A stretch of DNA of 64,000 bases, from contig JAZNBG010000035.1 of the NCBI GenBank assembly GCA_045586925.1, positions 6,417 to 70,416 of the forward strand. Reading direction: 5' to 3'. The notes beneath the pieces were generated by a model. It was not told the origin of the DNA. It did not search any database and saw nothing but the letters and a program-made list of their open reading frames with translations. The stretch comes from Clostridia bacterium. Its GTDB lineage: Bacteria; Bacillota; Clostridia; Monoglobales; Monoglobaceae. Both the position numbers and the translations under genes were made by a program. Shown in pieces: positions 18,519 to 55,711 of this stretch; position 1 is the stretch's first letter, and each line of letters opens with the position of its first letter.

Positions 18519-19142
18519 GTGGATAAAAGACTTGGCGTACAAACTGTAAAAATGGAGCATCCTGTCAATATTCTTTCTGTGGCAAGTGTGGCAGGACAAA
18601 AGGAGTCGCAAGGCCCTTTGGCACAGCATTTTGATATCATTATGGAAGATGCCGAATGGGGCGAGCAAACTTGGGAAAAAACCGAGAGTAAGATGCAAAA
18701 ATCAGCGGTTATACGTGCTGTTGAAAAGGCTAGGGTTGACATTAAGGATATAAACTATCTTTTTGCAGGAGACCTTCTTAATCAGTGTATCAGTTCAACC
18801 TTTGGGCTAATGGATTTTGATATTCCCTTTATGGGAGTTTACGGTGCTTGCTCTACAATGGCAGAGACAATCGGACTTTCGGCAATAGCTATTGACGGCG
18901 GTTTTGCTAGGCTTGCGGCAGCAGTGACGTCAAGTCACTTCTGTACGGCTGAACGGCAGTACAGAAACCCGTTGGAATATGGTGGTCAGCGAACGCCTAC
19001 AGCACAATGGACTGTTACAGGCTCTGGGGCGGCAGTGCTTTCCAAAGAGGGGAAAGGCCCATATGTGACACATTTTACCTCGGGAAAGATTGTTGATTAT
19101 GGCATAAAGGATGCCAATAATATGGGTGCAGCGATGGCACCT
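18519..19142 (+). pseudogene. spoVAD: spoVAD 5' segment (codons 1-208 of a split gene)
   Basis: Thiolase-like SpoVAD N-terminal sequence (GACSTMAETIGLSA, TSSHFCTAERQYR). Homology ends at ...GAAMAP. The ORF then runs 8 unrelated codons to a stop at 19166. Confidence 0.9.
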
Positions 19143-19265
19143 GTAAGTGTTAAACTAACACCATAAGGCGATGTGCTAAATCTCTACAAATTATGCGCTT
19201 TTAAGCCTGATTTTGCATTTTGAGAGGTGATGGTTTAACACTTTTTATTATGGGAAGACGGAGGG

Positions 19266-20671: not shown

Positions 20672-20814
20672 AAACAAATTTTTAATCATATAGGGGGTTG
20701 CAAAAAAATTATTTTTTGGCCAAATTTTTAAATGTGTAGATATTGAAAAAATTGCACACCCCCTAAATGTGCTAAAAACGCAGTAATACAGGCGTTTTCA
20801 GGATGTGCAGAATT

Positions 20815-21137
20815 GTGAATTTTCAGGAAGATTTTGCACTAGTAGGGAGGGTTGCAAAATAGTCTTGAAAATAAGCACTAAAAGTTGTATCAAAGAACAG
20901 AAGTCGCCAAAGCATTTTTGCAGGGACTGTAGTTAAACATTATAATGTAGTTTTGAGTAAAAAGCAGATAAAAGAATTAAAGTTATTGCAAGAGCCTTGA
21001 AGGAAATAAGGAGTATGAACTCTAGAAATAAACTTGCAAAAGACGGAGTATTAGAGTTAAAACACACAACGCTTTGAAGAAAAAAAGAAAAGCAATCCGG
21101 CACCTTTGAAAGAACAAATCTTTTAAGGGTGCTTTTC
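20815..21137 (+). repeat. Direct repeat copy A (~320 bp) ending in a terminator hairpin
   Basis: Aligns with 27833-28161, including the identical blocks CACTAGTAGGGAGGGTTG and AAGTCGCCAAAGCATTTTTGCAGGGA. It ends with the GCACC...GGTGC hairpin (21100-21132) plus a T-run. Confidence 0.8.
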
Positions 21138-21198
21138 ATTACTAAGAAGTCGATATAACATTACAGATTATACTCAAACACAAATTAGTAAATCATAC

Positions 21199-21227
21199 TT
21201 GACTAATTTATTTTTATATGCTATAAT
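21199..21227 (+). promoter_or_regulatory. Sigma-A promoter of the defence gene cluster
   Basis: TTGACT (21199-21204), 17 nt, TATAAT (21222-21227). Confidence 0.55.
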
Positions 21228-21256
21228 GTAGATAACCTAAAATGGAGGTCATGTAT

Positions 21257-22648
21257 ATGTTTATAGGCAGAGAAAGAGAGCTTGAAGCTCTGAATAAGCT
21301 TTATAAATCAAATAAATTTGAATTTGCGGTTATCTATGGCAGACGCCGCGTTGGTAAAACTGCGCTCATAAATGAGTTTATAGATAACAAAAAAGCCATA
21401 TATTTTATGGGTGTTGAAAGCAATGCAAAGCAGAATCTTGAAAACTTCTCAAAAAGCATTATGGAGTTTGCAAGTGGTATTGAAACGGAATCCTCTTTCC
21501 TTTCGTTCCAGGCGGCGTTAGAGTATGTATTCAAGCTTGCGGAAAACGAAAGAATCATTCTTGCTATTGATGAATACCCTTATGTGGCTCGTTCATCAAA
21601 AAGCCTTGCATCTACTTTACAACTTCTAATTGATAAATATAAAGATACATCAAAATTGATGCTTATTCTCTGTGGTTCTTCTATGTCCTATATAGAAGAC
21701 CATGTGCTTGCATATAAAGCGCCTCTTTATGGCAGAAGAACAGCACAAATGAAACTTTTGCCATTTGACTTTGAGGAAACATGCAGATATTTCAAAAATC
21801 TATCTGATGAAGATAAAGCACTTATTTATGGCGTTGCAGGTGGCACACCGCAGTACCTTTTGCAGATGGACGATAAATTAAGCGTTGAAGACAATATAAA
21901 AAACACATACTTAAATCCAATTTCATTCTTGTATGAGGAACCAACTAATCTTTTAAAACAAGAAGTGCGTGAACCGGCTATTTACACTGCGATCATTACA
22001 GCTATTGCAACTGGCTCATCAAGAATGTCAGAGATTTCAAGTAAAGTTGGCGAAGATACAAATGTATGTGCAACTTATATTAAAAACTTGATTAATCTTG
22101 GCATTGTTCAGAAAGAAACACCGTATGGTGAAAAGGCATCTCGTAAGTCAGTTTACTCCATTGAGGACAATATGTTCCGCTTCTGGTATCGCTTTGTTCT
22201 TGAAAACAACTCAATCATTGCACGTGGTGCTGCTGATTTGGTTTACAAAAGAATTGAACCACATTTTTCTAACTATATGGGTAAGGTTTTTGAAGAAATT
22301 TGTAAACAGTATCTTTGGAAACAACTTCTTTCCGGTAACTGCCCTGTAGAGTTTACCTCTCTCGGCCGCTGGTGGGGTAATGATCCGAAAGAAAAGAGCC
22401 AAACTGAAATTGATATTATGGGAGAACAGGATAAAAACACAGCTCTCTTTGCAGAATGTAAGTGGACTAACGAAAAGGTTGACCTCGGTGTTTTAGAAAC
22501 ACTTATAAAACGAGGTAATTTGTTCTCATATAAAACAAAGCATTATTACCTGTTCTCAAAATCAGGATTTACAAAAGGTTGTATTGATAAGGCTAACGAG
22601 ATGAGTAATGTAAGTTTGATAGAGTTTGCGGATATGATGGAGGTATAG
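21257..22648 (+). CDS. AAA+ ATPase (Arch_ATPase type) with a C-terminal DUF234 nuclease-like domain
   Basis: The opening MFIGRERELEAL and Walker A GRRRVGKTAL, plus Walker B LAIDEYPY. The C-terminus EIDIMGEQDKNTALFAECKW resembles a PD-(D/E)xK motif. Confidence 0.65.
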   Translation: MFIGRERELEALNKLYKSNKFEFAVIYGRRRVGKTALINEFIDNKKAIYFMGVESNAKQNLENFSKSIMEFASGIETESSFLSFQAALEYVFKLAENERIILAIDEYPYVARSSKSLASTLQLLIDKYKDTSKLMLILCGSSMSYIEDHVLAYKAPLYGRRTAQMKLLPFDFEETCRYFKNLSDEDKALIYGVAGGTPQYLLQMDDKLSVEDNIKNTYLNPISFLYEEPTNLLKQEVREPAIYTAIITAIATGSSRMSEISSKVGEDTNVCATYIKNLINLGIVQKETPYGEKASRKSVYSIEDNMFRFWYRFVLENNSIIARGAADLVYKRIEPHFSNYMGKVFEEICKQYLWKQLLSGNCPVEFTSLGRWWGNDPKEKSQTEIDIMGEQDKNTALFAECKWTNEKVDLGVLETLIKRGNLFSYKTKHYYLFSKSGFTKGCIDKANEMSNVSLIEFADMMEV

Positions 22649-22649
22649 T

Positions 22650-24737
22650 ATGGCTAAGAAAAAGAATAAACATGAAGCATTGTCTGTTGGAAGATTAATT
22701 AACGAAGTTTTAGTCGATCAGCTAGGAATCCCATTTCGAAACATAGTTAATGATACAACTTTTTCAGATTTTACAGGTTCTAAAAGACCAGATATTTTAA
22801 TAGGAAATTTTGAATATACTGGATCAAACAATGAACAATATATAAAAAATCTTGTTGCATATGCAGAAGCAAAAGACATTACATGCAAAGTGGATGATAC
22901 TGAGTGGAAAGATGCGGTAAATCAAGGTAAAGAAAAGGCTGCAAAATTAGGATTACCATTTTTCGGTGTAACAAATTGTAAAACAACATATTTTTACAAT
23001 TTAAAAACCGGAAATAGAATTTCTTTAAACGGTAATGTCATCTATGAATTTCAGACATTGGATGTTTTTAGAATAATAAAAAAGCAATTAACCGAAAAAC
23101 CAAATGTTGATGATATAAAAATAGGTATAGATTCACTATCCTCTGTTTCAGAAGCTGTTTTCAACAAAAAACTTTGGGAGCTAAAAGAAGAATATCGTGC
23201 GATAGATTTCGAAAATAATACACAAAAAATAGATTTTACTGTAGGAATGATTGCGTTAGAATATTATGAAGAAAAAGCTGAGATAGATGGAACTAAAGAT
23301 AATTCTATGCAGTATTGGTCTACATGTAAGGCGATGATTCCCAATCCATATACATATGAAAACTCAAACACAATAACAACGATTTTAGTAACATATATAG
23401 ATAGACTTACTGGCGAAGAGTCGGAGTTTAAAGAATTTTCTCCGCTTTTAAAGAAGGTAAAGGAATTAATAAGCGGTCAGAAACCTATGATTAATTCTAA
23501 ACGTTTGCAATCTATATATTTTATTATTGATTCTATGCGACCTCTGCATGGTACGGGCTTTGACTTGTTCGGTGCAGTGTATGAAAATTTTGCAAACACA
23601 AAAGAGAAGAAGGATTTTGGTGAGTATTTTACAAGGCGACATTATGCACATGTTTTTGCGGAGTTATTGTTGCAGAAAGAAGATATTTTTAATTCCGAAT
23701 ATAAATTTTCTATTTTAGACCCAGCTTGTGGAACTGGCGGAATGCTTACAGAAAGTTTTAAGGTTTTGAAAAACAACTATGAATCTTCGGGTACATTTGA
23801 TCAAGAAGCACAAACTTTTTTGTCCGAAGAGTGCTTTTATGGAATAGATGTAAGAGGAGAAAATATTTCAAGAACCCGTTTAAATATGTTTTTGGTTGGT
23901 GATGGGCACACAAACATGCACTCTGATGACTCATTAAACCCAACAACAAAAACTGGGAAGAAATTTTTGAATAAAAAATATAAATATATCATAACAAACC
24001 CTCCTTATGGACCGGGTACAGAATTAGCAAACACAGATAGTATAAACTCTTATAGGTTCGAAATAGCGTTTATCTGTAGAATTATAGATCTCCTAGAAAG
24101 AAATGGTCAAGCGTGTATAATCACCCCTGATGGCATTTTGGAAAACCCTTCTTTGAAAAAGTTTCGAAATGAGATTTTGCAAACATGTGAAATATATGCA
24201 ATAGTTTCTTTACCCAAGTTTGCTTTTGCACCTTATACAAAAGAAAAAACATACGCATTATTCATTAGAAAACTACATGATAGAGCGTCCTCGGAGCAAA
24301 CCAATAAAAAATTGCCTACTGGGAAATTCCAATCAACTCCAATTTGGATGTATATCATTGATAACGATGGCTTTGCTAATTCTGATAAGAGATTCCCTAC
24401 TAGACTTAGAGATTCAAGTCAAAGATGGCAGCATGATGAGGTTTCGGGTTATGCTGATAGCGAAGGTATAGAAAGAAAAAGTATTCTTGAACAGCGATGG
24501 TTAAATTTTGACGATACAGCTACGGGTGGAACATTGTGGATTGATGAAGATGGCATTGAAGTAAAAATGAGAAAAGGTGGCTTTGTACAAATTGACTCTA
24601 TTCGAAATAATGATTTTTTGACTTTACTTCCAGAATATTATCTAAGACCATATGAACCTAAGTTTATAACAGAGGAACAATTTAATGAAAGTATGGATAA
24701 TATTGAACGTGAGATAAAAGAGTTTTTTGGACTGTAG
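22650..24737 (+). CDS. Fused restriction endonuclease / N6-adenine methyltransferase (BcgI-A-like, type IIB/IIG)
   Basis: N-terminal PD...ExK candidate (RPDILI ... AYAEAKD). Methyltransferase motif I LDPACGTGGML and motif IV ITNPPYG. No HsdR gene nearby. Confidence 0.6.
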   Translation: MAKKKNKHEALSVGRLINEVLVDQLGIPFRNIVNDTTFSDFTGSKRPDILIGNFEYTGSNNEQYIKNLVAYAEAKDITCKVDDTEWKDAVNQGKEKAAKLGLPFFGVTNCKTTYFYNLKTGNRISLNGNVIYEFQTLDVFRIIKKQLTEKPNVDDIKIGIDSLSSVSEAVFNKKLWELKEEYRAIDFENNTQKIDFTVGMIALEYYEEKAEIDGTKDNSMQYWSTCKAMIPNPYTYENSNTITTILVTYIDRLTGEESEFKEFSPLLKKVKELISGQKPMINSKRLQSIYFIIDSMRPLHGTGFDLFGAVYENFANTKEKKDFGEYFTRRHYAHVFAELLLQKEDIFNSEYKFSILDPACGTGGMLTESFKVLKNNYESSGTFDQEAQTFLSEECFYGIDVRGENISRTRLNMFLVGDGHTNMHSDDSLNPTTKTGKKFLNKKYKYIITNPPYGPGTELANTDSINSYRFEIAFICRIIDLLERNGQACIITPDGILENPSLKKFRNEILQTCEIYAIVSLPKFAFAPYTKEKTYALFIRKLHDRASSEQTNKKLPTGKFQSTPIWMYIIDNDGFANSDKRFPTRLRDSSQRWQHDEVSGYADSEGIERKSILEQRWLNFDDTATGGTLWIDEDGIEVKMRKGGFVQIDSIRNNDFLTLLPEYYLRPYEPKFITEEQFNESMDNIEREIKEFFGL

Positions 24738-24746
24738 GAGGAATAA

Positions 24747-25901
24747 ATGAAATATCAAGTAAAAGATTATCCTATTTGTGATGCTATCTCTTGCATGAGT
24801 GGAAATTCTGGTTTAACAGAGGAATTTATATATAGTACGACACAGATAAAGGGTAAAAGGTATATAGTTTTATCCAGTGCTTTAGAAGAGGAAACAATGA
24901 TGGGCGAAGTTCCGATGTGTACTTTAAACGATAAACCAATTAAAGTCTTTGAAAATAAGGAAGGGCTACTGGTTGCCAGAAATGGCAGAGCCGGGACAAC
25001 AAGATATTTAACCCCAGGGCGATATACAATTAATGATCATGCATATATCCTTTCGGTTAAAAAAGGTTGTCCATATAAAATTGATCTGAGATGGTTGGCT
25101 ATTCAATATAAAACTGAATTTCTTTCATATTCATCAGCTTCAGATAATGGCACATGGAACAAAACTGGCTTTTTTAAAAATGTTACAATAGACGTTCCTG
25201 ATATTGATGAGCAGATACGAATCGTTAATATGGTAGAAAAGGCACAACAAACTATAGAAAAGATAAAAATAATTAAGAAGGATTTGCTTAAAGCATTTGA
25301 ACGCATAATTTCTGTCGAATATTCTAAATATGTTAAACGTAATATACCAATTAATGATGTTTTAGATTGTATGAGTGGCAATTCGGGATTAACATCCGAA
25401 TTCATATATAGCACTTTACATAAGCCAGGTAAAAGATTCAAAGTTTTGTCTGGAGCAACACAAGAAGAGAATTTATTAGGAGAAATCCCCAAATGTGCAA
25501 TAGACGATAAAATGATTAAAACTTTTGAAGATAAAGAAGGTCTCCTAGTTGTTAGAAAAGGGAAAGCAGGTGCTACAAAGTTTCTGCCAAAGGGTAACTA
25601 TACAATAAATGATGATGCATATATCTTGTCTGTAAAGCCGGACTTTGAAAAGTTGGTTGATATTAGGTGGATAAAGATTCATTGTAAAACAGACTTTATG
25701 AATTATTCATCATCTTCGGACAATGGTACATGGAACAAAACAGGCTTTTTTAAAAATGTTACAATAGACATTCCAGCGTTGGAAGAACAAAAACGTGTTG
25801 CAGCAACATATGAGAAGGCCGAAAAGTATTTTGAAAAAATACAAAAAATCGAAAAGCAACTAACAGAATTGTTGGATAAAAGGCTCTGTTCAGAATTGTA
25901 A
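24747..25901 (+). CDS. HsdS-like specificity subunit with two homologous target-recognition domains
   Basis: The two halves (aa ~10-190 and ~200-384) align throughout, for example CMSGNSGLTEEFIYST / CMSGNSGLTSEFIYST and SDNGTWNKTGFFKNVTID in both. Confidence 0.75.
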   Translation: MKYQVKDYPICDAISCMSGNSGLTEEFIYSTTQIKGKRYIVLSSALEEETMMGEVPMCTLNDKPIKVFENKEGLLVARNGRAGTTRYLTPGRYTINDHAYILSVKKGCPYKIDLRWLAIQYKTEFLSYSSASDNGTWNKTGFFKNVTIDVPDIDEQIRIVNMVEKAQQTIEKIKIIKKDLLKAFERIISVEYSKYVKRNIPINDVLDCMSGNSGLTSEFIYSTLHKPGKRFKVLSGATQEENLLGEIPKCAIDDKMIKTFEDKEGLLVVRKGKAGATKFLPKGNYTINDDAYILSVKPDFEKLVDIRWIKIHCKTDFMNYSSSSDNGTWNKTGFFKNVTIDIPALEEQKRVAATYEKAEKYFEKIQKIEKQLTELLDKRLCSEL

Positions 25902-26018
25902 TGATAGTCAGATGTGTGAAGTTTTTTGATTTGCATATACCAAGAGCTCAAAAAAACATAGACTTTAGATAAGATTGATGTTTAAGTGATTGAACTCTTC
26001 TTACAGGAGGGAATATAA

Positions 26019-26660
26019 ATGTGGAGAAAGTTCCGTTGGGATATGTTTGTTACATCATTTATCCCATTATGGTTTTCTATTATTGTTTTTAATCTATGGA
26101 AAGTAGTAGAAATTTCAATTGATGTTTGGGATAAGAAAAGCAAGTACATTGATAACATAGTAAATTGCATTGAAAAAAGCTATGTTGAACTCGGTGTTAT
26201 GCTTGTTGTTATTTTACTTGTTTGGATTAGTATTAGTGGAATTAGCTCTTTTATAAAGGAACGTAAGTCTACAGAAAATAATCCTAAAGGGAAAATAATA
26301 CGAGCAACTAAAGCTAACAAACTTTCTTCTGAGTTTTTGTTAGCATACATACTTCCTATGATAGCTTTTGACTTTGGAGAAATAAAGGATATAGTTTTGT
26401 TTGTTATATACTTTTCTGTATTGGCCTTTTTGTGCATAAGAAACAATAATATTTATACAAATATTCTTTTGGAATTTAAGGGTTATAAAATGTACAACTG
26501 CGATATTGAGTGTTCGGTGCTTGAAAAGAAAAAGATTTATCACGACAGCTTGATAATAAGTGAAGTAGACTTAACTCAGATGGAAGAAAATGAGATACCA
26601 TATTGGGATTTTGACAAATATATTTATATAGCAATAAACGAGGTGGAAGATAGTGAGTAA
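26019..26660 (+). CDS. Four-TM membrane protein, KwaA-like (candidate Kiwa component)
   Basis: 213 aa with 4 predicted TM helices. It overlaps the next gene by 8 nt. Size and architecture match KwaA as I recall it, but no sequence comparison was possible. Confidence 0.35.
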   Translation: MWRKFRWDMFVTSFIPLWFSIIVFNLWKVVEISIDVWDKKSKYIDNIVNCIEKSYVELGVMLVVILLVWISISGISSFIKERKSTENNPKGKIIRATKANKLSSEFLLAYILPMIAFDFGEIKDIVLFVIYFSVLAFLCIRNNNIYTNILLEFKGYKMYNCDIECSVLEKKKIYHDSLIISEVDLTQMEENEIPYWDFDKYIYIAINEVEDSE

Positions 26661-27585
26661 AACCGTACTAAAGACAATATGTGAATGTGGAAAAAATGGT
26701 CAATATTCATGGAGTTTGTTTTTCTTCAAAACAGACAAAAGAAATAAACAGCCTTATAAAATGTTTAAGGTTCGTTTTAAAAACGCTAATTATCTTACTA
26801 CATATGCAGCAAACTTAATTGAGACTGTTGATAAGTTTCAAATTGAACCTATAAGCGATGTCCAGGATTACGATGGTGAGAATTCAAAAGTATCATGTGA
26901 TAAGATTGAATTGTCTAATCAACTAATTAGCGAACAGTGGACCTTATTCACCGAAGCTGTTGCAAGTGCCGCTGATGGTAAAGCCGACGGAAGAATTAAT
27001 GGTTATATATTGTACGGACAATCTTTAAAAGAAGATGACAAGCCTATTACACTTGTTAAAGTGGCAAATCCGATAACAAAGCTTACAAACAAAAAAAGTG
27101 TAATATTCACGACTACTGCAGATGATGAACTGGAATTAATGTCTGATGATGTATGTAGGCTTTATCTTACTACTGACTTTATTGTTTTTGATGGAACCAT
27201 GTATACATTCAACCATACATTTGAAACAATCTTTAATCTTGAGAAAACAATGGCTAAGGTGAAGAATGATGCTATAGAAGAGATATTAAGTACAAATGCT
27301 TTTTCTAATCCTGAAGAATTTAAAGCATTGGCAGGAAAATACAAATCATCACGCACCTTTATAACTCTTAAAAAAGAACGTGTAAATAGAATTAAAGATA
27401 AACGCAGTAGGAAGAAAGTCGCAGAAATGCTCAAACTTCCACTTGGTAGTGATGGAGAGTTTAATATAACAAAACCAGAAGATGCGTCTCTTTTATTGCG
27501 ATATCTGTGTTTTAAAATATTCCAGGATAATGAGACAATGGATGTGCTTGAGGCTAATACTGTAAACAAATTAAATCTTGCATAA
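26653..27585 (+). CDS. Soluble 310-aa protein, KwaB/DUF4868-like (candidate Kiwa component)
   Basis: Translationally coupled to the membrane protein upstream. Size is typical of KwaB. The assignment rests on architecture only. Confidence 0.35.
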   Translation: MSKTVLKTICECGKNGQYSWSLFFFKTDKRNKQPYKMFKVRFKNANYLTTYAANLIETVDKFQIEPISDVQDYDGENSKVSCDKIELSNQLISEQWTLFTEAVASAADGKADGRINGYILYGQSLKEDDKPITLVKVANPITKLTNKKSVIFTTTADDELELMSDDVCRLYLTTDFIVFDGTMYTFNHTFETIFNLEKTMAKVKNDAIEEILSTNAFSNPEEFKALAGKYKSSRTFITLKKERVNRIKDKRSRKKVAEMLKLPLGSDGEFNITKPEDASLLLRYLCFKIFQDNETMDVLEANTVNKLNLA

Positions 27586-27832
27586 GGTTCAATAAAAAGA
27601 CATGGAGAAATCAAACTCCACAGCTTTGCAGGAATATATGTTTTCTGAAACAAAATGAATATAAAATATACATTCATTTTAGGTGAGAAATATACAAATT
27701 TTACTCCCGAGGGGGTTGGGAAAAACGGAAATTTTAGCGTTTTTTGAAAAGTAGTCAAAAAAGCATAACAACTCCACATATCAAATGCCGCTTATCCCTA
27801 GTAAAATAGCCACATTCAGGACTTGTAAAAAT

Positions 27833-28161
27833 TTAATTTTCAGACCACTTTTCCCACTAGTAGGGAGGGTTGGGGAAAACGCTTTTTGGTGTAATATTAA
27901 AAACGGTAAAAAATACACAAGTCGCCAAAGCATTTTTGCAGGGAATGTAGTTAGACGTAACGAGGTAATTTTGAGTGAAAACCAGTTAAACGTACAAAAG
28001 TAGTTACAAGAGCTTTGGAGGAAATAGCGAGAACAAAACTTGCGGATATAGTTAGCAAAAGACGGAGCAATAAAGTTGAAACACACAACGATTTGAAGGA
28101 ATAAAACATAAATAAATTCAGCACCGTTGAAAGATTTAAAATCTTTTGAGGGTGCTTTTTC
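27833..28161 (+). repeat. Direct repeat copy B (~320 bp) ending in a terminator hairpin
   Basis: Homologous to 20815-21137. It ends with a GCACC...GGTGC hairpin (28121-28155) plus T5, immediately upstream of the resolvase promoter (TGaTATAAT, hexamer 28193-28198). Confidence 0.8.
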
Positions 28162-28233
28162 TATAAACAAAATAATAACACCTGTCCGGTGATATAATAT
28201 CATAAAAAGCCATTATGGTTTGGAGGTGTTGTT

Positions 28234-28908
28234 ATGACATATGGATATGTTAGAGTGTCCTCAAGTGATCAAAATGTAGACAGACAATTAATTGAAATGG
28301 AAGGATTAACAATCCCCGTACAAAATATTTTTATAGATAAACAATCGGGTAAAGACTTTAAGCGCCCACAATATATTAAATTGCTTGAGGTTCTTAAAAA
28401 AGGTGATTTATTATATGTAAAGTCAATAGACCGTTTGGGGCGAAACTATAAAGAAATACTGGAACAATGGCAAATGCTGACTAAAGAAATGGAAGTTGAT
28501 GTTGTTGTAATAGATATGCCACTTTTAGATACACGAACTGCTAAAGATTTGCTCGGTACATTCATAGCGGACTTGGTTTTACAAGTGCTTTCTTTTGTGG
28601 CTCAAAGCGAGCGTGAAAACATAAAGAAACGCCAAGAAGAAGGCATAAAAGCTGCCAGACTTCGTGGCGTTAAATTTGGACGACCTGTTATTCCCGTGCC
28701 GGATAATTTTGAGTTTCTTGTTGAACAATGGGAACATGGGGAAATATCCGCCGATTATGTGGCTCAGAAAAGCGAAATGAGTGAATCAACCTTTTATAGA
28801 AGATTAAAAGAATTAAGGAAAAACACAAAACAAAAATCACTGTCAAATGGTACACTTTTTGACAGTGATTATTTTTTGTTGATATATACTGTTAAAAACA
28901 GATTTTAA
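28234..28908 (+). CDS. Small serine recombinase (resolvase/invertase family)
   Basis: Catalytic N-terminus YGYVRVSSSDQNVDRQ, SIDRLGRN, and a C-terminal HTH (SESTFYRRLKE). The last ~25 codons read through a terminator hairpin. Confidence 0.85.
   Translation: MTYGYVRVSSSDQNVDRQLIEMEGLTIPVQNIFIDKQSGKDFKRPQYIKLLEVLKKGDLLYVKSIDRLGRNYKEILEQWQMLTKEMEVDVVVIDMPLLDTRTAKDLLGTFIADLVLQVLSFVAQSERENIKKRQEEGIKAARLRGVKFGRPVIPVPDNFEFLVEQWEHGEISADYVAQKSEMSESTFYRRLKELRKNTKQKSLSNGTLFDSDYFLLIYTVKNRF
28835..28878 (+). terminator. Rho-independent terminator overlapping the resolvase 3' end
   Basis: 13-bp perfect stem AATCACTGTCAAA / TTTGACAGTGATT followed by ATTTTTTG. Confidence 0.7.
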
Positions 28909-29552: not shown

Positions 29553-29637
29553 ATATACAAATACAACAAATCATTGACAACTTCATTATATTATTTTAAA
29601 GCAGTGGTAGAATATATACATAAAGGAGTTGTCGAAT

Positions 29638-30477
29638 ATGAAAAGAATTACAAACGAATTAATTAAGAAATTCAGAGAATATCTGTTAAGTGAAGAAAAG
29701 GCAGTAGCAACGATAGAAAAGTATATCCACGATGTTCTTGTGTTTATGACTTGGCTTGCAGGAGCAGAGGTTACCAAAATGGCAGTTCTTGAATATAAAC
29801 AGGAACTAACTGAGAAGTATGCTCCCACAAGTGTTAATGCCGCGCTTTCTTCGTTGAATAGTTTCTTTGTTTTCAATGAATGGTACGATTGTAAAGCGAA
29901 AGCTGTGAAAATTCAAAAGCAGATTTTTGCCAATAAAGAGAAGGAATTATCAAAGGCTGAATACGAAAGACTGCTTTTAGCGGCAAAACAAAAGAAAAAT
30001 CAAAGACTTTACTTTCTTATGCAGACGATATGCAGCACCGGGATACGTGTATCTGAGTTGAGATTTATAACAGTTGAAGCTGTTTTAAGAGGACAGGCAC
30101 ATATTAACTGTAAAGGTAAGATGCGGGTTGTTATTCTCACAAATCAACTCTGTAAAATGCTGAAGAACTATATAAAAGATAATAAAATAATAAGTGGCTC
30201 GGTTTTTGTTACTAAAACAGGTAAGCCACTTGATCGTTCTAATATATGGTCGGATTTGAAAAAACTCTGTGAATGTGCGGGAGTAGATAAAGAAAAAGTT
30301 TTTCCACATAATTTTAGGCATTTGTTTGCGCGCACTTATTATACTTTGCAAAAAGATATAGTTCGTCTTGCTGATATCCTCGGTCATTCCAATGTAAACA
30401 CTACAAGGATTTACACAATGGAAAGCGGAGAGATGCATCGCAAGCAATTGCAAAAACTTGGATTACTGATATGTTAA
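29638..30477 (+). CDS. Tyrosine site-specific recombinase (XerC/D-like)
   Basis: SAM-like N-terminal domain. Catalytic residues are in TGIRVSEL (Arg), HNFRHLFA (His-x-x-Arg) and GHSNVNTTRIYT (His, Tyr). ATG 29638 follows AAGGAG. Confidence 0.85.
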   Translation: MKRITNELIKKFREYLLSEEKAVATIEKYIHDVLVFMTWLAGAEVTKMAVLEYKQELTEKYAPTSVNAALSSLNSFFVFNEWYDCKAKAVKIQKQIFANKEKELSKAEYERLLLAAKQKKNQRLYFLMQTICSTGIRVSELRFITVEAVLRGQAHINCKGKMRVVILTNQLCKMLKNYIKDNKIISGSVFVTKTGKPLDRSNIWSDLKKLCECAGVDKEKVFPHNFRHLFARTYYTLQKDIVRLADILGHSNVNTTRIYTMESGEMHRKQLQKLGLLIC

Positions 30478-51556: not shown

Positions 51557-51662
51557 AGGTTTTTTATACATAAGAACAATAAAAGAATATTATTTTAAAA
51601 AATTAATAAAAAAAACAACTCCACCTATTGTAAAGATAAAAATGATGTGTTAAAATATGCTT

Positions 51663-51850
51663 GTAAAAACTCATGATGAGTTTCAGGTAAGAAGATTACA
51701 CAGGTAAGAAGTTAAGCAGGTTTAAGATGTTACTCAAAGGGACAAGTCTGCCCTTTTGCAGAAAACGCACCTGTGATTGTCATAAGTGGAAACAAAAAGA
51801 AAGCAAACGCAAGTAATGAACCTACGGGGGATTTCGGTGTTTGCTTTTAT
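51663..51850 (+). ncRNA. Candidate small RNA unit 1 (own promoter and terminator)
   Basis: Promoter TTGTAA (51628-51633), 17 nt, TGtTAAAAT (hexamer 51651-51656). The body has GGTAAGAAG twice plus TTAAGCAGGT, then the GGGACAAGTCTGCCC motif with a T-run (51739-51757). The second hairpin is AAGCAAAC/GTTTGCTT with a T-run ending at ~51850. Confidence 0.3.
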
Positions 51851-51972
51851 TTTATCAAGTAGTAGAAAATAAAAATGCTTCGAGTATAGAAAAAACATTG
51901 AAAAAGTGAAACGATATGTTTATTTTCCCTCCAGGTATTGTAAATCAGGAAATAATAATGTAAAATGTACTT

Positions 51973-52056
51973 GTAAAAATGGTAAGCAGTTACACGGGTA
52001 AGCAGTTAAGCAGGTTAGCATAAAAATTGTTGGCGGGATAAGTCTGTCCGTTTTTA
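51973..52056 (+). ncRNA. Candidate small RNA unit 2 (paralogue of unit 1)
   Basis: Promoter TTGTAA (51938-51943), 17 nt, TAAAAT (51961-51966). The body has GGTAAGCAG twice plus TTAAGCAGGT, then GGGATAAGTCTGTCC followed by T5. Confidence 0.3.
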
Positions 52057-52674
52057 GCTATCTGCTTTAATGGAAAGTGTGAAAAGCATTATCCAATTTT
52101 ACGGAGATTAAAATTATATAGGCGGTAACAAAGAATGTAGAAACTATCCTATGGGATAAGACTGCATTCTTTTTGTTTTTAGAAGATAGATTTATCGGTT
52201 AGGAATAAAAGTTTTTATGAAGTCCTATACGGCACTTTTTACACTGTCTTGTAAAAGGATGTACGGACACAAAGATGTTTTGGTTGGAGAAACAAAAATG
52301 CAGAGTTTGCCATCGGATTTGTACGCATAGACTTTAAAAAATCCGTAGAGGTTGGACAGAACCTTGACATAGTAGCGGCTGTGAAAATATTAAATTACAT
52401 ATGTCACCGCTATGACATATTTCAGCATCGGCATAAATATATGCACCTGAGTTTAGCAGGGATGCTACCGCAGGAGAGTTTCTCCAACTACCTTTTGCGG
52501 GAATATTACTAACCGAGCAATATGCTTTAGATAAAATGGAGACAGGAACAAAGAAAACGTCTCAAAATACTGCAAATACTGGGTTTCTCACACAGTCATA
52601 CCGGGAAACACAGAGGTAACGAGGTGAAATTCCAACGGGATAGGTATGCCCTATGCTGAGGAAAGGACATTACA

Positions 52675-53535
52675 ATGTGTAAAAACATATACAAGAACTT
52701 GGAAATACAGTACAAGAAATTATTCCGCCATTTAAAGGTCGGAAGTTTCAAAACAAGAGAACGTTACGGAAAGGCGTTTAAGCGATTCATGGTATTTTTG
52801 GCAAGAGAATATCATTTGCAAAAGTTGGCAAACATTTCAGAAAAGCATATATACGCTTATGTAAGCTATATGCAAAATAAAGGTTTGTCTGCCTCAACAA
52901 TAAAGACCGAGCTTGCGGCAATACGATTTTTCCACGACAGTATGCCGTACACAAGAAGCACCTTGCCGACAAATGATGAACTCGAACTTGAAAAACGTAA
53001 TTTCGGCGGAGTTGACAGAACTTGGTCCGAAATAGAGTTTGCAAAAATGCTTGCAGCATCAGTGATGGGAGAATATCCGGAGTATTCGGGAATGCTTTAC
53101 CTTGGAAGATATGCCGGACTTCGTTTGGAAGAATGTTTCCGCATTGACACCAACGATGCTAAAAATGCTCTTGAAACGGGACAGCTACTGGTTAAAGGCA
53201 AAGGTGGACTCACAAGGTATGTACCGATTTGCTATCAACTTGAGATTGTATTTCGTGATATGTTAAAGATTACACCTATCGGACAAAAGCTATTTGTAAG
53301 ACCGTATGACAAGACACATCTTGCAATGAAGCGTTTGCAAAATTTTATTGCATACCACAGAAAAGAGTTTACTGAAAACAGAATTACCTTTCATGGACTT
53401 CGACATACATATGCTCACGAACAGTATGAGAAGTTCATAAAAGAAGGTTGTTCGGAATTTGATGCCCGAAAAAAGGTATCGGAGCTGCTCGGTCATCATC
53501 GTGATGATGTAACGAGAATATATTTAGCCGAATAA
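52675..53535 (+). CDS. Tyrosine recombinase/integrase
   Basis: SAM-like N-terminal domain (HIYAYVSYMQNKGLSASTIKTELAAIRFF). GLRLEE (Arg), HGLRHTYA (His-x-x-Arg) and LGHHRDDVTRIYL (His, Tyr). Confidence 0.8.
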   Translation: MCKNIYKNLEIQYKKLFRHLKVGSFKTRERYGKAFKRFMVFLAREYHLQKLANISEKHIYAYVSYMQNKGLSASTIKTELAAIRFFHDSMPYTRSTLPTNDELELEKRNFGGVDRTWSEIEFAKMLAASVMGEYPEYSGMLYLGRYAGLRLEECFRIDTNDAKNALETGQLLVKGKGGLTRYVPICYQLEIVFRDMLKITPIGQKLFVRPYDKTHLAMKRLQNFIAYHRKEFTENRITFHGLRHTYAHEQYEKFIKEGCSEFDARKKVSELLGHHRDDVTRIYLAE

Positions 53536-53582
53536 AAATTTGAATATTTGGAAATTATTAGATATAGCGAAAGGAGCTTTGT

Positions 53583-53789
53583 ATGATAAGTACTTCTGAT
53601 ATCGATAATTTCGTAGATTTGAAAAATTTGGCTATTGATAAAACAAAACCAATTGAGGAGCGGCTAAAGCAATTTATCACGGATGTAAAAAATCCGTATA
53701 TGGTAAGAGTTGGCGATACACTGGTACGAATAGAATTTACCGGTGGAAGAAACTTTTCAGATGCTTTAACTGCAGCTTTCGGTGCATAA
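53583..53789 (+). CDS. 68-aa protein of unknown function immediately upstream of the large serine recombinase (possible directionality or accessory factor)
   Basis: AAAGGAG RBS. The suggested role rests on position only. Confidence 0.3.
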   Translation: MISTSDIDNFVDLKNLAIDKTKPIEERLKQFITDVKNPYMVRVGDTLVRIEFTGGRNFSDALTAAFGA

Positions 53790-53813
53790 GTGGAAATTTC
53801 ATAATATTTCCTC

Positions 53814-53842
53814 TTGAAGTTTAGGCGGCGGTATGATATAAT
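53814..53842 (+). promoter_or_regulatory. Sigma-A-like promoter of the large serine recombinase gene
   Basis: TTGAAG (53814-53819), 17 nt, TGaTATAAT (hexamer 53837-53842). Confidence 0.45.
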
Positions 53843-53897
53843 TTTTAATGTAGAGATTAGCATATCGCCGTCAAAATAAAAGACGGAGGTACGCGAT

Positions 53898-55580
53898 ATG
53901 ACAAATACAAAATATGCGATGTACTTAGAGCAGCCTCCAGTATTTAAAATACAGTGGAGAGCTGCTCTTTATATAAGACTTTCAAAAGAAGATGGCGACA
54001 AAGGAGAAAGTAACTCTGTAACATCGCAGAGAGAAATATTAAAAGAATTCTTAAAGCTTCGCCCTGACATTGAACTCTATGACATTTATGTAGATGATGG
54101 TTGGTCGGGTACAAACTTTGACAGACCTGATTTTACACGAATGATGGAAGATATTTATTCCGGCAATGTAAATTGTGTTATAGTAAAGGATTTATCGAGA
54201 TTCGGAAGAAACTATACTGATAGCGGAAATTATCTTGACAATGTGTTTGTGAGGCTCAGAGTTCGTTTTATTGCACTTAATAACGGTGTTGATACCGCAT
54301 CAAACAATATGAACGCTGCAACACAGTGTATTTCTGTAGGTGTTACTAATGTTATCAACGAAAGTGTTGCCGCAACAACTTCGGTGAATGTTCGCGGAAC
54401 ACTGAATGTAAACCGTGCTCAAGGTAAATTTATAGGTTCTTTTCCAACATACGGATATTTAAAAGATCCTAATGACCATCATAAACTTATTGTTGATGAA
54501 GAAGTTGCGCCTGTTATTCGGTCAATATTTGAACGATTTGTTGCAGGTAAAAGTATAATCGGCATTGCAAAGGAACTAAACGAAGAAGGTATTCCTAATC
54601 CTTCAATGTATAAGAAACTTAAAGGTTTTAATTATAGACATCCCGTAGGAAAAAGCAATGACGGATTATGGCCGGACAGTTCTGTGCGAAGAATACTGCG
54701 AAATGAAATGTATATCGGCAATATGGTGCAAGGTAAAAATACAACAATAAGTTATAAGATTAAGCAATGCAGGCCAATTCCTAAAGAGGATTGGATTATT
54801 GTTGAAAACACTCACGAGGCTATTGTAAGTAAAGAGATATTTGAAAAAGCACAGTCTCTTTTCAACAAAAACATACGAGTCGCACCACAGAAAAAAGAAG
54901 TAGATTTATTTTCTGGTTTTGTTCGCTGTGCTGATTGTCATAGAACTATGAATAAGAAAACCAATGTCCATTCTTATGCAACATATCATTATTATCGTTG
55001 TTCTACTGCAAGAAAGATGAAAAAAAGTGCTTGTGGTAATCATACGATAAGAATTGATAAGCTGGAAGAAGCGGTATTAGTTGTTATTCAGAACATGGTT
55101 GATGTGGCAATTGAAATGGATGATATTCTAAAGAGAATCAATTCCAATGGTGAAAGAAAAAAAGAATCCAAACATCTTAAAAAGGCAATCGAAACACAAA
55201 CTGCTGAAAGGGATAAATGCAAACGAATGATGGTTGATTTGTATCCTGACTGGAAGAATGGCATTATTACTCAAGAGGAATATTTAATGTTAAAGCAGGG
55301 TATTTCAGAAAAAATAGAAACTCTTGATAAAATGATAGAAAATCTCACCGAAACAGCAAGAAGTTACGAGGAAGGAGTAAATGATGAAAATGAATTTATA
55401 GCCCATTTCAAGGCTCATGGCAAAATAAAAGCTTTAACCCGAAATCTTCTGCTTGAGTTGGTTGACGAGATTTTAGTTCACGAGGGCGGAGATATTACCG
55501 TGAAATTCAAGTTTAACGATGCCTATAAAGAAGTTATGGAATATATTGAAATGAATAAGGATGTTATTAAGACTGCTTAA
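53898..55580 (+). CDS. Large serine recombinase (SpoIVCA/SprA/phage-integrase type)
   Basis: 560 aa. Resolvase catalytic domain (AALYIRLSKEDGDKGESNSVTSQ, VKDLSRFGRN), a recombinase domain, a zinc-ribbon (CADCHRTM...YYRCST..ACGNH) and a coiled-coil tail. It lies 130 bp from the right junction. Confidence 0.9.
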   Translation: MTNTKYAMYLEQPPVFKIQWRAALYIRLSKEDGDKGESNSVTSQREILKEFLKLRPDIELYDIYVDDGWSGTNFDRPDFTRMMEDIYSGNVNCVIVKDLSRFGRNYTDSGNYLDNVFVRLRVRFIALNNGVDTASNNMNAATQCISVGVTNVINESVAATTSVNVRGTLNVNRAQGKFIGSFPTYGYLKDPNDHHKLIVDEEVAPVIRSIFERFVAGKSIIGIAKELNEEGIPNPSMYKKLKGFNYRHPVGKSNDGLWPDSSVRRILRNEMYIGNMVQGKNTTISYKIKQCRPIPKEDWIIVENTHEAIVSKEIFEKAQSLFNKNIRVAPQKKEVDLFSGFVRCADCHRTMNKKTNVHSYATYHYYRCSTARKMKKSACGNHTIRIDKLEEAVLVVIQNMVDVAIEMDDILKRINSNGERKKESKHLKKAIETQTAERDKCKRMMVDLYPDWKNGIITQEEYLMLKQGISEKIETLDKMIENLTETARSYEEGVNDENEFIAHFKAHGKIKALTRNLLLELVDEILVHEGGDITVKFKFNDAYKEVMEYIEMNKDVIKTA

Positions 55581-55618: not shown

Positions 55619-55711
55619 TTACTTTGTGAATTTTCACATAAAAACACACGTAGAATTATAGAAAACAAACAAAAATAAAAAATTTATGGTGTACCCTTGA
55701 CATTTTCCCCT

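What the first reader, a model, noticed from the sequence alone, without database searches (positions are those of the whole stretch)
20691..28233. ~320-bp direct repeats with terminators bracket the defence cassette, next to a small serine resolvase
Seen in sequence:
- Regions 20815-21137 and 27833-28161 are clearly homologous. Identical blocks include CACTAGTAGGGAGGGTTG and AAGTCGCCAAAGCATTTTTGCAGGGA, and further matches include AAAAGACGGAG and AAACACACAACG.TTTGAAG.
- They lie in the same orientation, 7 kb apart, exactly flanking the five defence genes.
- Each ends in an equivalent GCACC...GGTGC hairpin plus T-run. Compensatory differences within the stem suggest a transcribed unit ending there.
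- Each is preceded ~150 bp upstream by a second G-rich motif (TAGGGGGTTGCAAAAA at 20691; GAGGGGGTTGGGAAAAA at 27709).
- Copy B is followed directly by the resolvase promoter and gene.
- One reading frame is open in copy B (72 aa) but has three stops in copy A, so a conserved protein is unlikely.

Inference: the repeats could be res-like or homologous-recombination substrates allowing cassette loss or exchange. They could also be a repeated non-coding RNA or insulator module marking cassette boundaries.
Basis: partly seen in the sequence, partly recalled or inferred. Interest (0 to 1): 0.6.

Follow-up and report, generated by a model that had tools for sequence, protein, structure and literature searches.

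The report
Non-coding boundary repeats around defence genes
Two diverged copies of a roughly 450-base non-coding element, each with a conserved hairpin and a strong transcription stop signal, sit at the two edges of a swappable block of anti-phage genes in a gut Clostridia chromosome; they look like RNA-level boundary modules, not sites cut by the neighbouring resolvase.

Summary
Copy A (20686-21137) and copy B (27704-28161) are homologous, in the same orientation, 7018 bp apart. They bracket exactly five defence genes: a PDC-S27 ATPase, a methylase plus specificity subunit, and KwaA/KwaB.

Relatives change the picture. A B-type copy lies directly upstream of the 224-226-aa resolvase wherever that upstream DNA was recovered. 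It marks the fixed right edge of a slot whose cargo differs in each relative. A-type copies are an older paralogue, whole or truncated, found at several positions among the cargo.

The element does not code for protein and has no Rfam match. One stem-loop with an invariant loop, CUAGUAGGGAGGGU, is kept through compensatory changes. A strong intrinsic terminator ends each copy.

Nothing supports a res-like role:
- A and B do not homogenise.
- No hybrid copy is seen.
- No repeated half-site motif is found.
- The resolvase promoter region is not part of the repeat.

My best reading is a transcribed end-of-operon or insulator module, possibly a small RNA, that also marks where cargo is exchanged. 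It is restricted to a narrow clade, so interest is moderate.

Separately, the whole region lies inside a ~36.5-kb element that splits the sporulation gene spoVAD.

The parts
20686..21137 (+). Copy A (A-type element): the whole non-coding unit, from the first G-rich motif to the terminator T run
   Evidence: Alignment with copy B. Orthologues at 89-91% identity in L001 and L013.
27704..28161 (+). Copy B (B-type element): the whole unit, the fixed right border of the cargo slot, upstream of the resolvase gene
   Evidence: Present upstream of the resolvase in L013-L025 and L042-L046.
20691..20765 (+). Module M1 of copy A: G-box TAGGGGGTTGC (20691-20701), an A/T-rich spacer, and C-box ACCCCCTA (20758-20765)
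   Evidence: Sequence. Pairing looked plausible by eye, but covariation does not support it.
27709..27777 (+). Module M1 of copy B: G-box GAGGGGGTTGGG, an A/T-rich spacer, and C-box CAACTCCAC (27769-27777)
   Evidence: Sequence. Structure inconclusive.
20824..20867 (+). M2 stem-loop of copy A: arms 20824-20838 and 20853-20867, with the invariant loop CTAGTAGGGAGGGT at 20839-20852
   Evidence: RNAalifold. Pair counts: 90% of cells paired, 7 of 13 pairs with double changes, 0 of 500 shuffles as good. Fold energy -12 kcal/mol, z = -3.0.
27842..27885 (+). M2 stem-loop of copy B: arms 27842-27856 and 27871-27885, with the same loop at 27857-27870. The stem is TTTTCCC/GGGGAAAA, against TTTTGCA/TGCAAAA in copy A
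   Evidence: On its own this copy prefers an alternative fold that buries the G-rich motif.
20901..20926 (+). Invariant box AAGTCGCCAAAGCATTTTTGCAGGGA, copy A
   Evidence: Its first 24 nt are identical in 10 of the 11 copies that cover it; L013B is altered.
27919..27944 (+). The same invariant box, copy B
21036..21086 (+). Conserved box GCAAAAGACGGAG...AAACACACAACGCTTTGAAG, copy A
   Evidence: (family D3).
28055..28105 (+). The same conserved box, copy B
   Evidence: (family D3).
21099..21137 (+). Intrinsic terminator of copy A: 15-bp stem and T run
   Evidence: -20 kcal/mol, z = -5.7.
28120..28161 (+). Intrinsic terminator of copy B
   Evidence: -19.3 kcal/mol, z = -5.3.
21170..21241 (+). The ATPase cassette's own promoter region (TTGACT, 17 nt, TATAAT, with an inverted repeat). 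It is not part of the element
   Evidence: Promoter scan. ATPase homologues in other contexts share DNA only from about 21170 onwards.
21242..27585 (+). Bracketed cargo: PDC-S27/DUF234 ATPase (21242-22648), N6 methylase (22650-24737), specificity subunit (24747-25901), KwaA (26019-26660) and KwaB (26653-27585)
28164..28233 (+). Resolvase promoter and operator region (palindrome AACACCTGTCCGGTGAT, TGATATAAT, ribosome-binding site). It is not repeated in copy A
   Evidence: The -10 element and ribosome-binding site are shared with resolvase genes of conjugative elements.
28234..28908 (+). Small serine resolvase, 224 aa. The closest solved relatives are Sin/Bin3

Best explanation
**What it is.** The two repeats are paralogous copies of a roughly 450-nt non-coding element that works at the RNA level on the + strand.

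**Anatomy, 5' to 3'.**
1. A G-rich/C-rich module (M1).
2. A stem-loop (M2) that displays the invariant loop CUAGUAGGGAGGGU, which resembles a Shine-Dalgarno sequence.
3. A 24-nt box identical in 10 of the 11 copies that cover it, then about 200 nt of sequence conserved without detectable pairing.
4. A strong intrinsic terminator.

**Where the copies sit.** The B-type copy is the fixed right border of a variable defence-gene slot next to the resolvase gene. The A-type copy is an older paralogue that here lies at the left border.

**Proposed mechanism (inferred).** Transcription coming out of the upstream operon runs into the element and stops at its terminator. The next unit (the ATPase or the resolvase) then starts from its own promoter, so the element insulates neighbouring cassettes. 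The structured, terminator-capped tail may persist as a stable 3'-derived RNA. Its G-rich loop could bind a C-rich partner, the 30S subunit or a protein.

**Role in cargo exchange (inferred).** This role is passive. The element marks the conserved edge at which different cargo is found. A and B do not appear to recombine with each other, and the resolvase does not appear to use them.

**What is shown and what is not.** Shown: homology, non-coding nature, the M2 covariation, the terminators and the position at slot borders. Inferred: transcription, insulation and any trans-acting function.
For: **The repeat is real and strongly non-random**.

**It is non-coding.**
- No frame stays open across copies.
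- Substitutions show no third-position bias (read directly from the alignments).
- A 115-aa ORF called inside one copy has no homologue among 5.8 billion proteins.

**The M2 stem-loop is maintained.**
- 90.2% of cells pair, against 73.7% in shuffles.
- 7 of 13 pairs carry changes on both sides.
- Covariation score is 0.51, against 0.24 in shuffles (0 of 500 as high) and at most 0.17 in the slid controls.
- 15 of the 143 cells are G-U pairs, which would be A-C mismatches on the other strand. This favours the + strand.
- The stem survives although A-type 5' halves are only 60-67% identical to one another.

**The terminators are strong:** z = -5.7 and -5.3, and the hairpin is conserved in the aligned copies.

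**Downstream genes have their own promoters.** TTGACT-17-TATAAT precedes the ATPase. TGATATAAT precedes the resolvase and is shared with its relatives in conjugative elements.

**The element is not part of a neighbouring gene unit.** In genomes lacking copy A, the upstream transglutaminase-like gene ends with its own short terminator. ATPase homologues elsewhere lack the element.

**B-type copies lie at the slot border in every relative where the DNA upstream of the 224-226-aa resolvase was recovered**. Several metagenome contigs break inside the element, as expected at the edge of a strain-variable segment.
Against: - No convincing, conserved sigma-A promoter belongs to the element itself. 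Transcription is therefore assumed to come from upstream.
- Only M2 and the terminator have structural support. The M1 pairings fail the covariation tests, and the 200-nt core shows essentially none (covariation term -0.19).
- The relatives are close. Other intergenic DNA in the same loci is 82-100% identical. Conservation among B copies alone therefore does not prove selection.
- In copy B the M2 region alone folds no better than shuffles (z = -0.5) and prefers an alternative pairing.
- A terminator needs only about 40 nt, so insulation alone does not explain a 450-nt unit.
Confidence: 0.42

Rival explanations
1. **Passive duplicated intergenic DNA.** The element has no function of its own. 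It is an old segmental duplicate of the region upstream of the resolvase. It persists because it carries a useful terminator, and it occasionally serves as a homology arm for RecA-dependent gain, loss or swapping of cargo.
For: - The family is confined to a narrow clade. One genome-wide scan of 185,579 species gave two true hits. Nothing was found in viral, plasmid or JGI metagenome collections.
- Neighbouring intergenic DNA is equally conserved.
- Truncated A-type remnants with irregular junctions occur in L015, L044 and L004.
- L016 shows an in-register deletion between the two internal G-boxes.
- The 5' half of A is mosaic between genomes: 60% identity, flanked by segments at 90%.
Against: - The M2 stem keeps pairing through double changes in several lineages, and its 14-nt loop is invariant in nine of the eleven aligned copies. 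Neutral DNA would not do this.
- Identity between A and B is very uneven, from 0.30 to 0.90 along the unit.
- The first 24 nt of the box are identical in 10 of the 11 copies that cover it, although the types are only about 50-75% identical overall.
- There is no concerted evolution and no in-register A/B hybrid. Recombination between the two copies is therefore rare at best.
Confidence: 0.25
2. **Independent small-RNA gene.** The element encodes a trans-acting RNA of about 250-450 nt. Its G-rich loops titrate a C-rich RNA or a protein (in the manner of CsrA sponges or of STAB-SD ribosome binding), and it regulates the resolvase, the cargo or host genes.
For: - A covarying hairpin with an invariant loop, a strong terminator and a constant orientation in all copies.
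- Autonomy from both flanking genes.
- A-type copies have a promoter-like TTTGCA-18-TA(T/C)AAT inside the box (for the window; read by eye in L013A and L044A).
- The whole copies fold better than shuffles: z = -3.4 and -2.1.
Against: - No promoter is conserved in both types.
- The body of the RNA shows no covariation.
- There is no Rfam match even at relaxed thresholds.
- No target complementarity to the box was found in the window (searched both strands with up to 3 mismatches).
Confidence: 0.18
3. **Site-specific recombination sites.** A and B are res-like sites, or attI/attC-like sites, used by the adjacent small serine resolvase or by the Xer-like tyrosine recombinase at 29629-30477. They would serve to delete, capture or exchange cargo. 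The M2 hairpin would be a folded single-stranded DNA recognition structure.
For: - Direct repeats bracket the cargo next to two recombinase genes.
- The B-type copy always accompanies this resolvase subgroup.
- A-type copies or remnants sit between cargo genes and directly against B, like cassette junctions (L044 and L015).
- The covarying hairpin with a conserved unpaired motif is formally compatible with a folded DNA site.
Against: - The repeat excludes the resolvase promoter and operator region, where res sites normally lie, and a terminator separates the two.
- No repeated half-site motif exceeds chance.
- A and B are distinct types over their full length, with no hybrid left or right copies.
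- Left borders of the copies fall at different positions.
- Most cargo junctions lack any copy.
- The tyrosine recombinase scores 53.5 bits against the integron-integrase model, whose cutoff is 265.
- There is no GTTRRRY core.
- L013 keeps both A and B but lacks the tyrosine recombinase.
Confidence: 0.12

Closest known systems
PeSL (promoter-early stem-loop) mobile regulatory cassettes of T4-type phages (PMC2839356; PMC4122927, found)
   Same: Both are repeated non-coding regulatory motifs that include a terminator stem-loop. Both sit at the borders of variable genes inside otherwise conserved genomes, and both coincide with insertion, deletion and replacement endpoints.
   Different: PeSLs are described as composite promoter-terminator motifs that occur many times per genome, and their titles and abstracts link them to modular shuffling. 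I recall them as short; I read only the titles and abstracts, not the papers. This element is about 450 nt and has no convincing promoter of its own. It occurs one to three times per locus, carries an extra covarying hairpin and a 24-nt box, and shows no sign of exchange between its copies.
res sites of small serine resolvases (Tn3/gamma-delta, Sin)
   Same: Directly repeated DNA lies on one molecule next to a small serine resolvase gene, whose closest solved relatives are Sin/Bin3.
   Different: From my own knowledge, res is about 90-120 bp, abuts or overlaps the resolvase promoter, and consists of 2-3 dimer-binding subsites. Here the repeat is 450 nt and is separated from the promoter by a terminator. 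It lacks a repeated binding motif, and its two copies are only about 75% identical.
Integron attI/attC cassette arrays
   Same: A recombinase gene lies at one end of a variable array that carries defence genes. Structured repeats with a conserved fold but variable stem sequence sit at some cassette junctions.
   Different: There is no IntI-type integrase and no R/L boxes. Most junctions lack a repeat, the cargo genes have their own promoters, and the element is several times longer than attC.
STAB-SD 5' stabilisers and G-rich-loop RNA sponges (own knowledge: cry3A STAB-SD, Agaisse and Lereclus 1996; RsmY/Z-type CsrA sponges)
   Same: A Shine-Dalgarno-like G-rich motif (GGGAGGG) that is not followed by a start codon is displayed in an RNA hairpin upstream of a terminator-capped RNA body.
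   Different: Neither ribosome nor protein binding has been tested. Only one hairpin is supported structurally, not several. The resemblance is to a short motif only.
Intrinsic (Rho-independent) terminators, and 3'-UTR-derived small RNAs
   Same: A GC-clamped 14-15-bp hairpin followed by a U run lies at the 3' end of each copy, downstream of an operon.
   Different: The conserved unit extends about 400 nt upstream of the terminator. Whether it is processed or stable is unknown.

Membership tests
res site of a small serine resolvase | Lies directly at, or overlapping, the resolvase promoter | tested here: not met
   The repeated part ends at the terminator (28161). The 70-bp promoter region 28164-28233 has no counterpart in copy A.
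res site of a small serine resolvase | Two or three subsites built from a repeated recombinase-binding half-site of about 12 bp | tested here: not met
   The largest families of 10-mers (up to 2 mismatches, both orientations) are no larger than in shuffles, and all are A/T-rich. This is a weak test, because degenerate sites could escape it.
res site of a small serine resolvase | Two copies in direct repeat on one molecule | tested here: met
   Same orientation, 7018 bp apart.
res site of a small serine resolvase | Resolution product (a single recombinant copy with the cargo deleted) or resolvase-dependent deletion | tested here: inconclusive
   No in-register A/B hybrid occurs among six locus types.
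Integron (IntI with attI/attC) | Integron-type tyrosine integrase | tested here: not met
   The recombinase at 29629-30477 scores 53.5 bits against TIGR02249 (cutoff 265). It scores higher against the XerA, XerD and XerC models, though below their cutoffs.
Integron (IntI with attI/attC) | Every cassette ends in an attC with R''/L''-L'/R' boxes and a GTTRRRY core | tested here: not met
   Most cargo junctions have no repeat. The G-boxes read GTTGGGA or GTTGCAA, which do not fit GTTRRRY.
PeSL-like mobile regulatory cassette | Composite of a promoter and a terminator stem-loop | tested here: inconclusive
   The terminator is present. Promoter-like matches are not conserved between the types and do not exceed shuffles.
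PeSL-like mobile regulatory cassette | Copies flank variable genes and coincide with indel or replacement endpoints | tested here: met
   The cargo differs in the window, L013, L015, L044, L046 and L016, while B stays at the border. Contigs break inside the element.
PeSL-like mobile regulatory cassette | Recombination between copies | tested here: not met
   Orthologous copies are 88-90% identical, while paralogues in the same genome are 74-78% identical. There is no homogenisation.
Any described RNA family (Rfam 15) | Covariance-model match at the gathering score | tested here: not met
   No match in the window at gathering thresholds. The only matches at E up to 10 are sub-threshold and look like chance.
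Structured RNA element (generic) | Base pairs maintained by compensatory substitutions | tested here: met
   Met for the M2 hairpin only. M1 and the core are not supported.
Intrinsic terminator | GC-rich hairpin followed by a U run, downstream of a gene | tested here: met
   The hairpin is conserved in the nine aligned copies.
MITE or IS-derived element | Terminal inverted repeats and target-site duplication; many genomic copies | tested here: not met
   No inverted repeat links the two ends of either copy. No further copies occur in the window or in 62 loci outside this slot, apart from L004.
Protein-coding gene or pseudogene | A reading frame conserved across copies, or a detectable protein homologue | tested here: not met

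The most novel reading that the evidence does not exclude
The slot between the transglutaminase-like gene and the resolvase would be an integron-like cassette platform of Clostridia. B would be the resident attachment site beside the recombinase genes. A-type units would be cassette-borne sites. The covarying M2 hairpin, with its invariant unpaired motif, would be a folded single-strand recognition structure used by the resolvase or the Xer-like recombinase to capture defence cassettes. This would all sit inside a developmentally excised element that splits spoVAD.
Probability: 0.06. Interest if true: 0.85.

Novelty: new variant of a known kind. Interest (0 to 1): 0.4.

Why it matters
Defence genes cluster in hotspots, but what marks and insulates the edges of such slots is rarely examined, least of all in uncultured gut Firmicutes.

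This locus offers a concrete, testable case. A conserved structured non-coding unit sits at the fixed border of a slot that holds different anti-phage systems in each close relative: Kiwa, PDC-S27, GmrSD, GAPS4, NACHT and DUF4143 ATPases.

If the unit is a functional RNA, it would be a new RNA motif linked to defence islands. If it only insulates, it still explains how foreign cassettes with their own promoters are tolerated next to a recombinase gene.

The family is narrow and its function is unproven, so the value is moderate.

The context found in passing may be the more notable result for sporulation biology. A 36.5-kb element carries this slot and a type VII secretion locus, and it splits spoVAD beside a large serine recombinase.

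Tried and rejected
**Searches for further copies**
- BLASTN of copy B against the phage and plasmid collections gave nothing.
- Two exact-motif scans of viral contigs gave nothing.
- A metagenome scan with a 20-mer gave only a chance hit.
- The genome scan gave 2 true and 9 chance hits.
- nhmmer profiles of M1, M2 and the core found no copies outside the known positions in 62 loci.
- The exact-sequence look-up of the resolvase found no record.

**Coding hypotheses**
- No frame is consistent across copies.
- There is no similarity to the NlpC/P60 gene that precedes related resolvases in conjugative elements, nor to any other window ORF.
- No protein homologue exists for the ORF called in one copy.

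**Candidate structures and promoters**
- A sigma-54 promoter and the ECF or sporulation-sigma readings of the conserved box were considered by eye and dropped. Spacings and key bases do not fit or are not conserved.
- I first favoured an M1 G-box/C-box stem, by eye. It was rejected as unsupported after three explicit pair counts.
- A conserved minus-strand promoter in M1 (TTGACT-16-TAAAAT) is good in only about three of five B-type copies and absent from A-type. It was not pursued.

**Linkage and recombination hypotheses**
- The idea that copy A travels with the PDC-S27 ATPase was rejected. ATPase homologues at 89% identity in other contexts lack it.
- The res-motif search was negative.
- Concerted evolution was not seen.

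Full report
**1. The observation**

The sequence at the given coordinates is as described. The repeat finder returned a co-linear series of direct-repeat blocks spaced 7018-7023 bp apart: 122 nt at 80%, 51 nt at 86%, 23 nt at 91% and 21 nt at 95%. BLASTN of the two whole intergenic regions gave 73.9% identity over 348 nt (E = 2e-49), with no third copy in the window.

The 26-nt block AAGTCGCCAAAGCATTTTTGCAGGGA occurs only at 20901 and 27919, against none expected by chance. Homology extends to the upstream G-rich motif, so the unit is about 450 nt: A = 20686-21137 and B = 27704-28161.

The copies occupy the whole gaps between ORFs and bracket exactly five genes. These genes match PDC-S27/DUF234 ATPase, a type I-like N6 methylase with its specificity subunit, and KwaA/KwaB of Kiwa. 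Copy B is followed by a 70-bp promoter region and a 224-aa small serine resolvase, whose closest solved relatives are Sin/Bin3.

Both copies end in strong hairpins followed by T runs (z = -5.7 and -5.3).

**2. The genomic setting**

The window is a chromosome of a spore-forming Clostridia, probably Oscillospiraceae. It carries malQ, spoVA genes, a type VII secretion locus, miaB, mutS and mutL, and nearly all genes lie on one strand.

spoVAD is split:
- residues 2-212 of the 337-residue profile are encoded at 18519-19166;
- residues 206-335 are encoded at 55697-56104;
- spoVAE follows directly.

About 36.5 kb is therefore an inserted element. A large serine recombinase (53898-55580) abuts its right junction. 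The repeats and the defence genes lie about 1.5-9 kb from its left end.

**3. Relatives**

The collections gave few DNA hits. One genome-wide scan found two true homologues, L001 and L004. Phage, plasmid, viral and JGI metagenome collections gave none.

Going through the resolvase protein was more productive. Wherever the DNA upstream of a 224-226-aa relative was recovered, a B-type copy lies directly upstream of that gene (L013-L025 and L042-L046). The 200-aa relatives sit in conjugative elements, directly after an NlpC/P60 gene, and have no such element.

Between a conserved transglutaminase-like gene on the left and B plus the resolvase on the right, the cargo differs in each locus type:

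| Locus | Cargo |
|---|---|
| Window | PDC-S27 ATPase / methylase with S subunit / Kiwa |
| L013 (L001 shares the left part) | ATPase / GmrSD / methylase and others |
| L015 | DUF4143 ATPase plus two unknown genes |
| L044 | NACHT protein, DUF4143 ATPase and one unknown gene |
| L046 | small ORFs plus a metallophosphatase |
| L016-L019 | GAPS4-type nuclease |

This is a defence-gene hotspot with B at its fixed right border. Several metagenome contigs start inside the element. That is what a branch point between conserved and strain-variable DNA would produce; this is my inference.

**4. Two types of copy**

The alignment of 13 copies falls into an A-type and a B-type. The types differ along their entire length.

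A-type copies occur in four settings:
- complete, between the transglutaminase-like gene and the ATPase (window, L001, L013);
- as a 330-nt 5' part between two cargo genes (L044);
- as a 190-nt 5' part lying directly against B (L015);
- as a shortened copy after a Fic gene (L004).

Copy A is not part of the ATPase cassette. ATPase homologues at 89% identity in other contexts share DNA only from window position ~21170 onwards. Copy A is not part of the upstream gene either. That gene has its own short terminator where A is absent.

Orthologous copies are 88-90% identical in the 3' part. Paralogues in the same genome are only 74-78% identical there and about 50% identical in the 5' part. The duplication is therefore old, and the copies do not homogenise.

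**5. What the element contains**

*Non-coding.* No reading frame is shared by the copies. Substitutions show no codon-position bias (read from the alignments). The ORF that gene callers sometimes place in it has no homologue among 5.8 billion proteins. It does not derive from the gene that precedes the resolvase in conjugative elements. Rfam gives nothing.

*The M2 stem-loop.* RNAalifold on the 5' half predicts one stem-loop. An explicit pair count supports it:
- 13 pairs, with 90% of cells paired, against 74% in shuffles;
- 7 pairs with changes on both sides;
- covariation score 0.51, against 0.24 in shuffles (0 of 500 reach it) and at most 0.17 when partners are slid.

The stem reads UUUUGCA/UGCAAAA in A-types and UUUUCCC/GGGGAAAA in B-types, and its outer pairs show four pair types. 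The 14-nt loop CUAGUAGGGAGGGU is invariant in nine of the eleven copies aligned, and in ten of the eleven copies that carry it. It contains a strong Shine-Dalgarno-like motif with no start codon after it. Fifteen of the 143 cells are G-U pairs, which favours folding of the + strand.

*Cautions on M2.* Copy B alone folds this segment no better than shuffles, and it prefers an alternative pairing that buries the G-rich motif. Much of the covariation separates just two clades, although A-type 5' halves are themselves only 60-67% identical.

*M1.* The upstream G-box/C-box pairing that I first favoured by eye is not supported in any of three registers.

*The core.* The first 24 nt of the box are identical in 10 of the 11 copies that cover it. 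From the box to the terminator, sequence is conserved (A against B 0.70-0.90, but 0.30-0.56 in most of the 5' half). It shows no covariation apart from the terminator.

*Limit on the conservation argument.* The relatives are close. Other intergenic DNA in the same loci is 82-100% identical, so conservation among B copies is not by itself evidence of selection. The evidence for constraint rests on three things: the uneven A-against-B profile, the maintained M2 stem, and the 24-nt box together with the M2 loop.

**6. The resolvase idea**

- The region next to the resolvase gene has its own -10 element and ribosome-binding site, shared with the relatives in conjugative elements, and a palindrome. 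None of this is in copy A, and a terminator lies between it and the repeat.
- No repeated half-site motif exceeds chance.
- No left or right hybrid copies exist, and the left borders of the copies fall at different positions.
- Most cargo junctions have no copy.
- The nearby tyrosine recombinase is Xer-like, not an integron integrase, and it is absent from L013, which nevertheless keeps both A and B.

I therefore rank site-specific recombination low, but I cannot exclude it without biochemistry.

**7. Most likely mechanism**

I think the element acts as RNA on the + strand. Transcription from the upstream operon enters it and stops at its terminator. The next unit then starts from its own promoter (for the ATPase; for the resolvase). 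The element thereby insulates neighbouring cassettes in a slot where foreign operons come and go.

The hairpin-capped, terminator-capped tail may persist as a stable RNA with a G-rich loop available for a C-rich partner, the ribosome or a protein.

Transcription, insulation and any trans-acting function are all inferred. What the extra ~400 nt does remains open.

Its relation to cargo exchange is positional. It is the conserved edge, and its 5' half is mosaic between genomes (60% identity, flanked by 90%). Even so, A and B do not seem to recombine with each other.

**8. Comparison with known systems, and verdict**

The nearest functional analogues are the PeSL promoter-terminator cassettes at the borders of variable genes in T4-type phages (PMC2839356 and PMC4122927). 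This element differs from them in its size, in lacking a clear promoter, and in showing no sign of exchange between copies.

It fails the defining features tested for res sites, integron sites, MITEs, known RNA families and protein genes.

I class it as a new variant of a known kind (a non-coding boundary or regulatory module). It is confined to a narrow clade and of moderate interest.

Noticed in passing
window 18519-19166 and 55697-56104 (junctions near 19140-19165 and 55697-55715); recombinase at 53898-55580: spoVAD is split. The N-terminal part matches profile residues 2-212 of 337, and the C-terminal part matches 206-335. spoVAC lies before the first part and spoVAE after the second. About 36.5 kb therefore interrupts the gene, and a large serine recombinase (XisF/Ccr/SpoIVCA-like) abuts the right junction, as in skin-type intervening elements. 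Both halves carry CCTG at the junction. L015 shows the same truncated SpoVAD. A full-text search returned 7 papers holding at least three of the four search terms, and none of them mentions spoVAD.
   Followed up: partly
window 51619-51760 and 51929-52055: There are two tandem units, each about 130 nt, spaced 310 bp apart. Each has a TTGTAA-17-TAAAAT promoter-like site and internal GGTAAG(A/C)AGTTA..CAGG repeats. The second ends in a hairpin with a T run found by the terminator scan; the first ends in a similar hairpin that I read by eye. They may be small RNAs, or the regulatory region of the adjacent tyrosine and serine recombinase genes. The segment is conserved at about 76% in L004.
   Followed up: partly
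L004 (minus strand) 5758-1, compared with window 20686-20935 and 51593-54642: In this Clostridia MAG, an A-type element lies only 2.2 kb from DNA homologous to window 51.6-54.6 kb, which is the right end of the spoVAD-splitting element. In the window these two are 30 kb apart. Related elements therefore differ greatly in size and content.
   Followed up: partly
window 21242-22648 and loci L047-L062: The PDC-S27/DUF234 ATPase is very widespread at 89-96% identity, with thousands of hits. It recurs as the first gene of a module ATPase - (DUF5655 or GmrSD) - N6 methylase - S subunit. It is sometimes found next to IS21 or a Tn916-type integrase. It always carries its own promoter with a TTAGTCAAG...CTTGACTAA inverted repeat.
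   Followed up: partly
window 28164-28233; L026, L033, L036 and L038 upstream of their resolvase genes: The resolvase belongs to a family whose 200-aa members sit in conjugative elements, directly after an NlpC/P60 gene. The TGATATAAT promoter and the ribosome-binding site are conserved between the two settings. The palindrome at the -35 position differs: CACCTGTCCGGTG here against ATGTATT..AATTACAT there.
   Followed up: partly
window 27601-27622 (minus strand) and 27731-27758 (minus strand): A minus-strand promoter-like site (TTGACT-16-TAAAAT) lies inside module M1 of copy B. A minus-strand terminator-like hairpin lies about 130 nt downstream of it. Together they could give a short antisense RNA containing the C-rich complement of the G-box. 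The promoter is good in only some B-type copies (other copies read by eye).
   Followed up: no
L016-L025, upstream of the resolvase (e.g. L016 3012-3048): In this group the element has lost about 150 nt through an in-register fusion of the M1 and M2 G-boxes. It also carries a further upstream module of the same G-box/A-T-rich/C-box design. That module also occurs in L004 (5663-5600) and L013.
   Followed up: no
window 25081-25219 and 25657-25795: A 139-nt internal direct repeat (77% identity) lies within the specificity-subunit gene. It is the usual duplication of the conserved region between the two target-recognition domains, and no inverted partner suggests phase variation.
   Followed up: no
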